DNA from: a virus
Taxonomy: Duplodnaviria > Caudoviricetes
DNA length: 64,000 nt
Virus record (IMG/VR): IMGVR_UViG_3300020469_000008
Coordinates: 138,055 to 202,054 of that record
Direction: 5' to 3' (one strand)
Part shown: positions 13,771-62,810 of the stretch, one piece after another
How the letters are laid out: each line of letters opens with the position of its first letter
Position numbering within the stretch: position 1 is the first letter of the stretch
Position numbers and translations under genes: made by a program
Notes under the pieces: model-generated
The model's input: only the letters and a program-made list of their open reading frames with translations
Databases searched by the model: none
Told to the model about the DNA's origin: nothing

Positions 13771-14107
13771 GGGCCCGTAATGGTTTCGACGGGGTAGAAT
13801 CAAGGGGAGAGTGCAAGTAGGGAAGATACGCCCTTAACAGTTCAAACATAATAGTTGCAAACAATAACAACTTTTACGACGTAGCTTTAGCTGCATAATC
13901 GTGGTGGTCGTCTCAAACCATCTAACCAAGAGAGGCTTTAGCAGTTGGAACTGCCGAGAAATAAAATGACAACAGTCCTCACTCGGTCACGGAGAGGCGA
14001 ACAATACAGTGACTATCCTGTTAATCGGAGAAATGATTAGATAAGCTTGTGAATGACTCAAACTAAGACTATTGCGGACAGGGGTTCGACTCCCCTCGGG
14101 TCCACCA
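13771..14107 (+). ncRNA. ssrA: transfer-messenger RNA (tmRNA)
   Basis: 5' GGGCCCG pairs with 3' CGGGTCC giving G3.U70, then A-CCA; T-arm GGGG-TTCGACT-CCCC; tag ORF 13857-13898 ANNNNFYDVALAA*; TATAAT at 13755. Confidence 0.95.
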
Positions 14108-55466: not shown

Positions 55467-55558
55467 TTGTAAAGAATTGGTGTAGAGATTAACGCACGAG
55501 GTGTAAACCGGGAAGTGGAGCGGGTAATCTCGAGGGTGGGTAACGGGATCCTTTACAA
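55467..55558 (+). ncRNA. candidate multibranch structured RNA / G-rich element
   Basis: TTGTAAAG/CTTTACAA outer stem, GAGATTA/TAATCTC inner stem, five GGG tracts. Confidence 0.4.
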
Positions 55559-56544: not shown

Positions 56545-56671
56545 GTGGTTGGTGTTTAGCAATCTGTATACAAGGGCGCAAGGACGGCATAGGTCGACGA
56601 GGCAGCCGTATACAGATTGCGGAGAGAGAGCTGGTTACTCTCGGGAAAGGGTGGGCACATTCACCGACCAC
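56545..56671 (+). ncRNA. candidate three-way-junction structured RNA
   Basis: Outer stem 56545-54/56662-71; 13-bp stem 56559-71/56608-20; GAGAG/CTCTC hairpin 56626-42. Confidence 0.55.
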
Positions 56672-61970: not shown

Positions 61971-62306
61971 ATGACAGTTTTTGATTACGCACCCACAACA
62001 GATTGGAGAGACAAGAACATGACTTCTAATCTCGATCACATACTAGATGAAGAGGCACTGACAATCGTCAAAAGCATTGACGTCGATGAACTAGAACGCG
62101 CATTTGGCGATCGCCCGCAAGACTACCATCGTGGTGATTACGAACACGATGTGAAGGGATACACACTACCTTACTGGTACTTCAAATCAATCAATGATGA
62201 AGTAGTAGGTATCGGTTTCCGCTACGGTATCCCAAGAGTCGTTGGAAAGAATGTCACACCTGAAAGATTGGCCCGGTTTGTAAAGCTGGTGGCACAAAAA
62301 GTGTAA
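61971..62306 (+). CDS. hypothetical protein
   Basis: Ends QKV* at the promoter box. Confidence 0.6.
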   Translation: MTVFDYAPTTDWRDKNMTSNLDHILDEEALTIVKSIDVDELERAFGDRPQDYHRGDYEHDVKGYTLPYWYFKSINDEVVGIGFRYGIPRVVGKNVTPERLARFVKLVAQKV

Positions 62307-62329
62307 CTGCTCCCAAAGTGTAGTATGAT
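62301..62329 (+). promoter_or_regulatory. phage promoter GTGTAA-N17-TATGAT
   Basis: Repeated motif. Confidence 0.7.
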
Positions 62330-62356: not shown

Positions 62357-62650
62357 ATGACAGAGAGAAAGTTTTTGACCACCGCGAAGACAGAAGCAGA
62401 TGTAAGAAAGATTGCCGACTGGTACGGCTGGCAGACTGAGGAGGATAACGAAGGGCAGCTGATTATCTACACCGATATCCCCGAAGGTGCACCCCAAGTG
62501 GCACAGGAAGCTGCTGCCATCTACAACTGGGATTATGATAGTGATAACTTAGGTGCGATCCTGCTGTACACTGGGGTTTACTCAGATGAACAGATCCGCC
62601 GAGATGAAAAGAACAGTCTTTACCCAGATAAGTGGGATCCCTGTAACTAA
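62357..62650 (+). CDS. hypothetical protein with internal duplication (DNEGQLIIYT / DNLGAILLYT)
   Basis: SD AAAGGAG. Confidence 0.6.
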   Translation: MTERKFLTTAKTEADVRKIADWYGWQTEEDNEGQLIIYTDIPEGAPQVAQEAAAIYNWDYDSDNLGAILLYTGVYSDEQIRRDEKNSLYPDKWDPCN

Positions 62651-62658
62651 GAACATAT

Positions 62659-62763
62659 GCGGTCTGCATAACCCAGTTTGCCGACTGGGTGGGTGCACAC
62701 TCTCAGAATAGAGACGGCAATCTCTGAGTTGAGAACGCTGGGGTTCGATTCCTCAGGTCCGCA
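62659..62763 (+). ncRNA. tRNA-like structured RNA with complementary (kissing) hairpin loops
   Basis: Acceptor-like stem GCGGTCT/GGTCCGC + A; T-arm TGGGG-TTCGATT-CCTCA; hairpin loops TTGCCG (62678-83) and CGGCAA (62715-20). Confidence 0.65.
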
Positions 62764-62781
62764 GCCTCTTTGCCACCAAAA

Positions 62782-62810
62782 GTGCAACATAACCAAAAGC
62801 ACTATATACT
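62782..62810 (+). promoter_or_regulatory. phage promoter GTGCAA-N17-TATACT
   Basis: Repeated motif. Confidence 0.75.

What the first reader, a model, noticed from the sequence alone, without database searches (positions are those of the whole stretch)
62659..62763. tRNA-like RNA whose D- and anticodon-arm equivalents end in complementary kissing loops
Seen: acceptor-like stem GCGGTCT/GGTCCGC (one mismatch, one G.U) + discriminator A, and a canonical T-arm TGGGG-TTCGATT-CCTCA. In place of the D-arm is GCAT/GTGC extended by the 7-bp stem ACCCAGT/ACTGGGT with loop TTGCCG. In place of the anticodon arm is TCTCA/TGAGA, a 3x3 internal loop and TAGAGA/TCTCTG with loop CGGCAA. The two 6-nt loops are exact reverse complements, and there is no 7-nt anticodon loop or encoded CCA. 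Known: tRNA mimics (tmRNA TLD, bacterial Y RNAs) retain acceptor/T arms, and phi29 pRNA multimerises through complementary loops. Inference: an undescribed anticodon-less tRNA mimic that closes intramolecularly or oligomerises, possibly a decoy for anticodon nucleases, a ribosome or synthetase ligand, or an RNP scaffold.
Basis: partly seen in the sequence, partly recalled or inferred. Interest (0 to 1): 0.9.

Follow-up and report, generated by a model that had tools for sequence, protein, structure and literature searches.

The report
New tRNA-shaped phage RNA, pairing loops
A marine giant-phage lineage carries a conserved 105-base RNA that keeps a tRNA's acceptor stem and T arm, but its other two arms are long hairpins whose tip loops stay complementary through compensating mutations; it matches no described RNA family and its function is unknown.

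Summary
ARAGORN and Rfam 15 call neither it nor any homolog a tRNA or a known family.

I found 12 distinct homologs in marine metagenome contigs. Each lies directly after the homolog of the 97-aa gene at 62357-62650. They fall into three diverged types.
- Between types the stems are only about 58% identical, yet 94% of pair cells stay paired and 14 pairs changed on both sides (0/500 shuffles).
- The two 6-nt loops are 10-11/12 identical. Their only differences sit on one predicted kissing pair: G-C in the window type, G.U in L045, A-U in L042/L046/L047.

So this is a selected, strand-specific RNA whose loops very probably pair. Whether they pair within one molecule or between molecules is not settled.

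The element is single-copy, has no promoter of its own and sits in a 3' UTR. One sub-lineage has deleted it, so it is dispensable. A conserved 3' trailer motif (UUURCC) is also complementary to loop 2 and changes with it; this is unexplained.

Expression as a discrete small RNA and the function are untested. This scan had not found the element on other DNA.

The parts
62301..62329 (+). Phage promoter (GTGYAA-N17-TATAMT type, one mismatch) of the cassette that carries the element
   Evidence: Pattern scan: 27 matches in the window against 2.2 expected by chance. No promoter of this type lies between the gene and the element.
62357..62650 (+). 97-aa ORF of unknown function. The element always lies directly after its homologs.
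   Evidence: ORF list. 75 homologs in metagenomes. No Pfam or PHROG match. AF2 model has pLDDT 76 with no significant fold match.
62649..62658 (+). Conserved 5' leader AAGAAYAUAU, with U at position -1
   Evidence: Nearly invariant in all 14 loci, although stems differ by about 40% between types.
62659..62665 (+). Acceptor-like stem, 5' strand (GCGGUCU)
   Evidence: Pairs with 62756-62762. The pair at position 6 covaries (CG:9, AU:3). The U.U at position 5 becomes U-A or U-G in the diverged types.
62666..62696 (+). Arm 1 (D-arm position): 4-bp basal stem, bulges including the invariant GG at 62691-62692, and a 7-bp upper stem
   Evidence: 100% of cells paired. 5 of 7 upper-stem pairs changed on both sides. 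G33 and G34 are invariant. Arm length is 11-12 bp in all types.
62678..62683 (+). Loop 1, UUGCCG (UUACCG in the L042 type)
   Evidence: Exact reverse complement of loop 2. Covaries with it.
62701..62734 (+). Arm 2 (anticodon-arm position): 6-bp stem, internal loop, 6-bp stem
   Evidence: MFE fold. Stems are replaced by other complementary sequences in L045 and L042. The 20-nt insertion in L045 folds as a side hairpin and leaves arm length unchanged.
62715..62720 (+). Loop 2, CGGCAA (CGGUAA in L045 and the L042 type)
   Evidence: Kissing helix, alignment columns 21-27 with 84-89: five invariant pairs and one covarying pair (GC:7, GU:1, AU:3).
62739..62755 (+). T arm: 5-bp stem and 7-nt loop UUCGAUU
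   Evidence: 3 of 5 stem pairs changed on both sides. The loop is 6/7 identical between types.
62756..62763 (+). Acceptor-like stem, 3' strand (GGUCCGC), and discriminator A. No CCA is encoded.
   Evidence: The phage's three true tRNAs also lack an encoded CCA.
62764..62781 (+). 3' trailer with conserved motif CCUYUUURCCAC. UUUGCC at 62769-62774 is a direct repeat of loop 1 and is complementary to loop 2.
   Evidence: The trailer R base tracks the loop 2 Y base in all 14 loci (G with C in 10, A with U in 4). This is also near the deletion junction in L013-L021.
62782..62810 (+). Promoter of the next cassette
   Evidence: Exact match to the promoter pattern.

Best explanation
This is the founding member of an undescribed family of phage-encoded, tRNA-shaped non-coding RNAs.

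Shown: it is a four-way junction on the + strand. It keeps a tRNA acceptor stem, discriminator, T stem and T loop, and an invariant GG where the D-loop G18/G19 would be. The D and anticodon arms are replaced by two hairpins of 11-12 bp each. Their 6-nt apical loops are complementary, and selection keeps them so.

Inferred: the RNA is transcribed from the promoter at 62301 as the 3' part of the 97-aa gene's mRNA. Host tRNA enzymes then cut it out, RNase P at the conserved U(-1)/G1 and RNase Z-type 3' processing after A73. The two loops form a 6-bp kissing helix. This helix either locks the two equal-length arms side by side within one molecule, or joins two molecules head to tail.

Most speculative: the locked RNA presents only the acceptor/T-arm face of a tRNA. 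During early infection it would act as a non-decoding tRNA mimic (decoy or ligand) for a host or phage protein that reads that face.
For: - Fold and its significance.
- No tRNA or Rfam assignment for the element or for any homolog.
- Homologs: 12 distinct sequences of three diverged types, always directly after the same gene.
- Covariation: 94.2% of cells paired, 14 pairs changed on both sides, 0/500 shuffles as high, 28-48% paired when partners are slid.
- Conservation between types: stems 37-40 of 66-68 positions identical, kissing loops 10-11/12, T loop 6/7.
- The only loop differences are G-C -> G.U -> A-U on a single kissing pair. My estimate for two loop changes falling on partner positions and being complementary is about 0.03.
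- Complementarity beyond the six loop bases is not conserved. L045 has none, so the pairing is loop-to-loop and not an alternative long helix (sequences).
- Many G.U pairs and A-U/G.U alternations would be C.A mismatches on the other strand, so the + strand is the functional one.
- Promoters bracket the gene plus element, and none lies between them.
- The leader, with U at -1, is conserved.
- Both arms stay 11-12 bp in all types.
- Duplex energy of the loops is -7.6 kcal/mol, or -5.6 for the variant loops.
Against: - No direct evidence of a discrete processed RNA. RNA-library contigs are low-depth (2-6x), one bridges gene and element, and DNA carry-over is possible.
- The kissing helix rests on one covarying pair, about two substitution events in three clades.
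- L038 carries an uncompensated change plus a 1-nt insertion in loop 1, leaving 4-5 bp.
- One abundant sub-lineage has deleted the element (L013-L021) and others lack it (L031, L130), so it is not essential.
- The trailer motif is an equally good 5-bp partner for loop 2 and also covaries, so loop 1 may not be the only or main partner.
- No partner protein is known. Neighbouring genes are all ORFans.
Confidence: 0.6

Rival explanations
1. It is a purely cis-acting 3'-UTR element. A tRNA-like structure would define or protect the 3' end of the upstream early mRNA, either by blocking 3' exonucleases or by recruiting RNase P/Z to cut the transcript before the next promoter. It would have no function as a free RNA. 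The loop-loop pairing would only make the fold compact.
For: It has no promoter of its own and sits between a stop codon and the next promoter. It always travels with the same upstream gene. It is dispensable in a sub-lineage. One RNA-library contig spans gene and element.
Against: About 20 other cassettes in the same array have no such element, and no terminator-like site was found. The six-base loops, the T loop and the GG bulge are conserved far more strictly than a simple exonuclease block would need.
Confidence: 0.2
2. It is a tRNA-Gly-directed RNA. Loop 1 would imitate the GCC (or ACC) anticodon loop, and loop 2 would display a glycine codon followed by A (GGC-A or GGU-A, as in a T-box specifier). 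The RNA would mask itself, and when open it would bind the anticodon of tRNA-Gly(GCC) or engage GlyRS.
For: Loop 1 UUGCC equals the anticodon loop of the phage's tRNA-Gly(GCC). The acceptor begins G1-C72, C2-G71, G3-C70. These pairs and C35/C36 are glycine identity elements (PMC9976931). The covarying position is the wobble position 34 / codon base 3, and both GGC and GGU are Gly codons. The trailer motif UUGCCA matches the anticodon loop even more closely.
Against: General alignment shows no special similarity to tRNA-Gly. By my estimate, sharing a 5-mer with some tRNA's anticodon loop is likely by chance. The discriminator is A73, whereas bacterial tRNA-Gly and the phage's own tRNA-Gly have U73. 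The loops are 6 nt, not 7.
Confidence: 0.1
3. It is a decaying tRNA gene, or an attP-type tRNA fragment, with no RNA function of its own.
For: It is tRNA-like at both ends. It lies in a phage that carries tRNAs and a tmRNA. One lineage has lost it.
Against: Compensatory changes maintain all six helices, including the non-tRNA extensions. The loops are under strong constraint across about 40% stem divergence. A pseudogene or an att core would not behave this way.
Confidence: 0.03
4. It acts at the DNA level. TTRCC and GGYAA would be inverted and direct half-sites for a DNA-binding protein near the next promoter, changing in concert with that protein.
For: Three copies of the motif (two direct, one inverted) lie within 100 bp upstream of a promoter and change together.
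Against: Two of the motifs sit exactly on the tips of hairpins whose stems covary with G.U intermediates on one strand only. L045 has mixed half-sites. Other copies of the promoter lack the motif.
Confidence: 0.03

Closest known systems
Canonical tRNA (Rfam RF00005)
   Same: 7-bp acceptor stem with discriminator. 5-bp T stem with 7-nt UUCGANU loop. Four-way junction. GG retained where G18/G19 would dock on the T loop. No encoded CCA, as in the phage's own tRNAs.
   Different: No linker at positions 8-9. The D loop is replaced by a 7-bp hairpin. The anticodon arm is replaced by a 12-bp interrupted hairpin with a 6-nt loop. It is not detected by ARAGORN or by the Rfam tRNA model.
tRNA-like domains without an anticodon: tmRNA TLD and mascRNA/menRNA (RF01684)
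   Same: An acceptor/T-arm module kept for recognition by tRNA enzymes. mascRNA is likewise cut from the 3' end of a longer transcript by RNase P and RNase Z (textbook knowledge, from memory).
   Different: No mRNA-like domain and no G3.U70. Only 14.6-20 bits against the 42.5-bit mascRNA cut-off. It is bacterial-viral, larger, and has two long arms with pairing loops.
phi29 pRNA and kissing-loop complexes such as HIV-1 TAR-TAR* / DIS
   Same: Two hairpin loops with Watson-Crick complementarity. All six loop bases pair, as in TAR-TAR* (from memory).
   Different: No sequence or Rfam similarity. Here both loops are on one tRNA-shaped molecule. Whether they pair within or between molecules is unknown.
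Riboswitch aptamers closed by loop-loop contacts (purine L2-L3; lysine L2-L3 six-pair kissing; from memory)
   Same: Two neighbouring, equal-length helices of a multi-helix junction are tied together at their tips.
   Different: No ligand pocket is evident. It is not upstream of a regulated gene, because the next gene has its own promoter. It has a tRNA-like module.
Phage T4 RNAC/RNAD and bacterial Y RNA (YrlA)
   Same: T4 RNAC and RNAD are small phage RNAs transcribed from the tRNA region whose roles are unknown (PMC3014915). YrlA has a tRNA-like module (from memory).
   Different: No homology was detected. No Ro/TROVE protein is encoded in the 202 kb held. In YrlA the RNA ends do not form the acceptor stem.

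Membership tests
tRNA (RF00005) | 7-bp acceptor stem plus discriminator base | tested here: met
   four invariant G-C/C-G pairs, one covarying pair, A73.
tRNA (RF00005) | 5-bp T stem with 7-nt T loop (UUCRANY) | tested here: met
   The loop is UUCGA(U/C/A)U in all 12 sequences.
tRNA (RF00005) | 5-bp anticodon stem with 7-nt loop (U33, anticodon, R37) | tested here: not met
   Arm 2 is 6 + 6 bp with an internal loop and a 6-nt loop CGGCAA. Arm 1's loop is 6 nt.
tRNA (RF00005) | D arm with open 7-11-nt loop, and U8/N9 linker | tested here: not met
   There is no linker. The D loop is occupied by a 7-bp hairpin and only the GG is retained.
tRNA (RF00005) | Detected by ARAGORN or reaches the Rfam gathering score | tested here: not met
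   (intron option included).
tmRNA (RF00023) | tRNA-like domain plus tag-peptide ORF and pseudoknots; G3.U70 | tested here: not met
   Only the true tmRNA at 13771-14107 is called. The element has G3-C70 and no ORF.
phi29-type pRNA (RF00044) | Match to the family model | tested here: not met
   No match even at E<=10.
phi29-type pRNA (RF00044) | Intermolecular loop-loop pairing that builds a ring on the portal | not testable with these tools
Bacterial Y RNA / YrlA | Ro60/Rsr (TROVE) partner encoded nearby; Rfam match | tested here: not met
   No TROVE domain in the 202-kb record, which is about 70% complete. No Rfam match.
mascRNA-type tRNA-like 3'-end element (RF01684) | Reaches the gathering score (42.5 bits) | tested here: not met
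   14.6 bits for the window and 20 bits for the L042 type.
mascRNA-type tRNA-like 3'-end element (RF01684) | Excision by RNase P and RNase Z from a longer transcript | not testable with these tools
   Only low-depth assembled contigs from RNA libraries were available.
Kissing-loop interaction (structural motif) | Loop-loop Watson-Crick complementarity kept in homologs by compensatory change | tested here: met
   helix 4: five invariant pairs and one pair with GC:7, GU:1, AU:3. L038 deviates. Sequences.

The most novel reading that the evidence does not exclude
A self-masking glycine tRNA mimic. One arm would display a tRNA-Gly anticodon-loop copy (UUGCC or UUACC) and the other a glycine codon followed by A (GGC-A or GGU-A). 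The two pair like codon and anticodon, with the natural covariation falling exactly at the wobble position. When open or processed, the codon-like loop would capture the anticodon of tRNA-Gly(GCC). Alternatively the RNA would assemble into RNA-only head-to-tail dimers. Either way the phage would gain an RNA that senses or sequesters one tRNA species.
Probability: 0.1. Interest if true: 0.9.

Novelty: new variant of a known kind. Interest (0 to 1): 0.68.

Why it matters
tRNAs and the enzymes that cut, modify or charge them are a major front in phage-host conflict. Phage-encoded tRNA look-alikes that cannot decode are almost unexplored.

This element is compact (105 nt) and has clear covariation support. 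It combines the part of a tRNA that processing enzymes, CCA-adding enzyme, EF-Tu and many nucleases read with an unprecedented pair of arms tied together by a 6-bp loop-loop helix. It is easy to test: in vitro RNase P/Z cleavage, native gels with compensatory loop mutants, and pull-downs.

If it proves to be a decoy, a tRNA-specific sponge or an RNA-only multimer, it would define a new class of viral tRNA mimic. It would also provide a natural tRNA-scaffold / kissing-loop module for RNA engineering. If it is only a 3'-UTR processing signal, it would still be the first bacterial-virus counterpart of the mascRNA-type mechanism.

Tried and rejected
Searches for homologs that found none:
- INPHARED phages, blastn with 801 nt.
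- IMG/VR, six scans by DNA pattern or neighbour protein, all chance hits only. These were the loop-based pattern, the 3'-end patterns, a loop-free structural pattern, the 97-aa protein and its alignment, and a 913-aa phage protein.
- GTDB genomes: 79 pattern hits, none confirmed by the covariance model; only ordinary tRNAs at about 20 bits.
- Paralogs in the phage's own 202 kb: none.

Genes for possible partners in the own genome: TROVE/Ro, CCA-adding enzyme and RtcB were all absent.

Neighbouring proteins:
- Nine flanking ORFs gave no Pfam or PHROG match.
- The AF2 model of the 97-aa protein (pLDDT 76; helix-strand-strand twice, then a helix) has no significant PDB or AFDB match.

Transcript evidence: four RNA libraries hold the element only as 151-267-nt, 2-6x contigs, with no ends or depth profile. 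This is inconclusive.

Ideas rejected:
- Ancestry from tRNA-Gly by alignment, which gave no better score than other tRNAs.
- A promoter of its own upstream, which has no convincing match.
- An intrinsic terminator, none found.
- An alternative long helix between the two hairpin regions. It is possible in the window (12 nt with 2 mismatches) and in L042, but absent in L045, so it is not conserved.

Literature: four searches found no description of such an RNA.

Full report
**Context**

The window is the last 64 kb of a 202-kb IMG/VR virus record, estimated about 70% complete. GC content is 34-43%. The record carries a tmRNA and tRNA-Arg(UCU), tRNA-Gly(GCC) and tRNA-Met(CAU).

The last 10 kb is an array of small ORFan cassettes. 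Each is headed by a phage promoter of the form GTGYAA-N17-TATAMT; there are 27 matches against 2.2 expected by chance. The finding lies between the stop codon of a 97-aa ORF (62357-62650, promoter at 62301) and the next promoter (62782).

**The observation**

- RNAfold gives the same four-arm cloverleaf as both MFE and centroid (-43.9 kcal/mol, z = -3.18, 0/200 shuffles as stable).
- The two 6-nt loops, UUGCCG (62678-83) and CGGCAA (62715-20), are exact reverse complements. For two given hexamers the chance of this is about 1 in 4096.
- ARAGORN, with or without introns, does not call the element.
- Rfam 15 has no match at gathering scores. At E<=10 there is only a 14.6-bit partial match to the tRNA-like mascRNA model, whose cut-off is 42.5 bits.

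**Homologs**

Nothing similar exists in INPHARED, IMG/VR or one genome per GTDB species. The element is single-copy in its own genome.

The upstream 97-aa protein has 75 relatives in marine metagenome assemblies. Fetching their contigs, plus one metagenome pattern scan, gave the element directly after that gene in 12 distinct sequence versions. They fall into three types:
- the window type, eight versions 90-100% identical to the window;
- L045, 125 nt long;
- the L042/L046/L047 type, 106 nt long.

None of them is called as a tRNA or an Rfam family.

**Covariation of the cloverleaf**

I built a covariance model on the cloverleaf (R1). It realigned all 12 sequences (63-122 bits).
- On that alignment 94.2% of pair cells are standard pairs, against 28-48% with partners slid by 1-3 columns.
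- Fourteen pairs show changes on both sides, and no shuffle of 500 reaches the observed values.
- Every helix is supported. In the acceptor, C6-G becomes A-U, and U5.U becomes U-A or U-G. The upper stem of arm 1 has 5 of 7 pairs changed on both sides. The inner stem of arm 2 has 2 of 3, and the T stem 3 of 5.
- The frequent G.U pairs and A-U/G.U alternations would be C.A mismatches on the other strand. The RNA is therefore read from the + strand, like all the genes around it.
- One caveat applies. There are only three clades, and the alignment was fitted to the nested structure. It was not fitted to the pseudoknot.

**The loops**

Between the three types the stems are only 37-40 of 66-68 positions identical. 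The twelve loop bases are 10-11/12 identical and the T loop is 6/7 identical.

The only loop differences lie on one predicted kissing pair:
- G22-C60 in the window type;
- G.U in L045 (loop 2 CGGUAA);
- A-U in L042/L046/L047 (loops UUACCG and CGGUAA).

These are shown. This is the classical compensatory path. I estimate the chance that two loop changes hit partner positions and are complementary at about 0.03.

Complementarity outside the six loop bases is not conserved; there is none in L045. So the conserved feature is loop-to-loop pairing and not an alternative long helix. The computed duplex energies are -7.6 kcal/mol, or -5.6 for the variant loops.

One single-contig variant deviates. L038 has UUGCCC plus a 1-nt insertion, which leaves 4-5 possible pairs.

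**tRNA-like features that are kept**
- The first four acceptor pairs (GCGG/CCGC) and A73.
- The T loop, UUCGANU.
- An unpaired GG (62691-92) just 5' of the 3' strand of the D-like stem. This is where G18/G19 of a tRNA contact the T loop, and it is invariant.
- The leader AAGAAYAUAU, with U at -1, is conserved across all types. From memory, U(-1) is the base bacterial RNase P prefers.
- No CCA is encoded, but none of the phage's true tRNAs encodes one either. Lack of CCA is therefore normal for this system and fits RNase Z-type 3' processing followed by CCA addition.

**Geometry (inference)**

There are no linker bases on either side of the acceptor stem, and there are 4-nt linkers around arm 2. 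Both arms keep 11-12 bp in all three types, and the 20-nt insertion in L045 is accommodated as a side hairpin.

Equal-length neighbouring arms tied at their tips recall the loop-loop closure of the purine and lysine riboswitch aptamers (from memory), which favours pairing within one molecule. Fully paired 6-nt loops, as in TAR-TAR*, prefer a coaxial arrangement, which favours a head-to-tail dimer. I cannot decide between these.

**An unexplained third motif**

Six nucleotides after the discriminator, the trailer carries UUUGCC (62769-74). This is a direct repeat of loop 1 and is complementary to loop 2 over 5 bp.

The trailer (CCUYUUURCCAC) is almost invariant between types. Its R base tracks the Y base of loop 2 in all 14 loci: G with C in 10, A with U in 4, including L045 where loop 1 kept G. 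Three window-type loci have UUUGCA, which leaves 4 bp.

Either the trailer is an alternative partner of loop 2 in the unprocessed transcript, or the two repeats evolve in concert.

A sub-lineage (L013-L021, 14 contigs) has lost everything after the first 26 nt of the element, with the junction beside these repeats. In some relatives the upstream ORF now reads through the remnant (proteins P0050 and P0068). L031 and L130 lack the element altogether. The RNA is therefore an accessory, not an essential part.

**Expression**

Words from the element occur in several marine RNA libraries. Only 151-267-nt, 2-6x assembled contigs could be laid on the window. They cover the element in all four runs chosen, and one spans the gene and the element. 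This is compatible with co-transcription but does not exclude DNA carry-over, and it says nothing about processing.

**Function**

The neighbours give no help. Nine flanking ORFs have no Pfam or PHROG match. The 97-aa protein folds as a small repeated helix-strand-strand unit with no significant structural relative. The held genome encodes no Ro/TROVE protein, CCA-adding enzyme or RtcB.

My best reading is this. The RNA is excised from an early transcript by host tRNA-processing enzymes. It is locked by the kissing helix so that it shows only the acceptor/T-arm face of a tRNA. It then acts as a non-decoding mimic towards a protein that reads that face.

A more daring reading follows from several details:
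- loop 1 equals the anticodon-loop pentamer of the phage's tRNA-Gly(GCC);
- loop 2 displays GGC-A or GGU-A;
- the covarying base is the wobble base;
- the acceptor starts with the G1-C72, C2-G71 and G3-C70 pairs that, with C35/C36, are glycine identity elements (PMC9976931).

Against this reading, the discriminator is A and not the bacterial U73, and a general alignment shows no special likeness to tRNA-Gly. I give it about 10%.

**Novelty**

No paper in four literature searches describes such an RNA. The closest phage precedent is T4 RNAC/RNAD, small RNAs from the tRNA region whose roles are still unknown (PMC3014915). The notes of this scan hold no look-alike on other DNA.

I class the element as a new variant of a known kind (tRNA-like RNAs). 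The fold and the loop pairing are well supported. Expression and function are open.

Noticed in passing
L013-L021 (e.g. L013:1670-1720), L031:340-410: A sub-lineage of the same phage group keeps only the first 26 nt of the element and then runs into the next promoter. In some relatives the upstream ORF has lost its stop and reads through this remnant, giving a C-terminus ...MRSVQPVCRTTKVQHN (proteins P0050 and P0068).
   Followed up: partly
window 62764-62781: The trailer motif UUURCC is a direct repeat of loop 1 and complementary to loop 2. Its R base tracks the Y base of loop 2 in all 14 loci. It may be an alternative pairing partner, or the two repeats may evolve in concert.
   Followed up: partly
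L045:3350-3400: The L045 version has a 20-nt insertion in arm 2 that contains the palindrome UAGCUAGCUA. It folds as a side hairpin and leaves the arm length unchanged.
   Followed up: partly
window 13771-14107: The phage encodes a tmRNA (108.7 bits) with tag peptide ANNNNFYDVALAA. An overlapping weaker match to the permuted-tmRNA model was also reported.
   Followed up: no
window 28975-63809: The promoter-like motif GTGYAA-N17-TATAMT occurs 27 times on the + strand, against 2.2 expected. Most cassettes have no terminator-like site.
   Followed up: partly
window 55467-55558 and 56545-56671: Two other GC-rich structured intergenic stretches lie just upstream of promoters and share GGGTGGG with the element. 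By eye they have no T-loop or acceptor-like features. They were not folded or compared with homologs.
   Followed up: no
window 62357-62650: The 97-aa protein upstream of the element is predicted (pLDDT 76) to be two helix-strand-strand units followed by a final helix. It has no significant match in PDB or AFDB clusters. One JGI label, 'Rieske Fe-S protein', looks spurious.
   Followed up: yes
L002:3547-3715, L003, L006, L011: Four unrelated IMG/VR contigs share a conserved stretch of about 170 nt that ends in a tRNA-like T arm (GGTTCGATTCCGAG). The loop-pattern scan picked them up by chance. It may be the 3' part of a tmRNA or another tRNA-like RNA.
   Followed up: no
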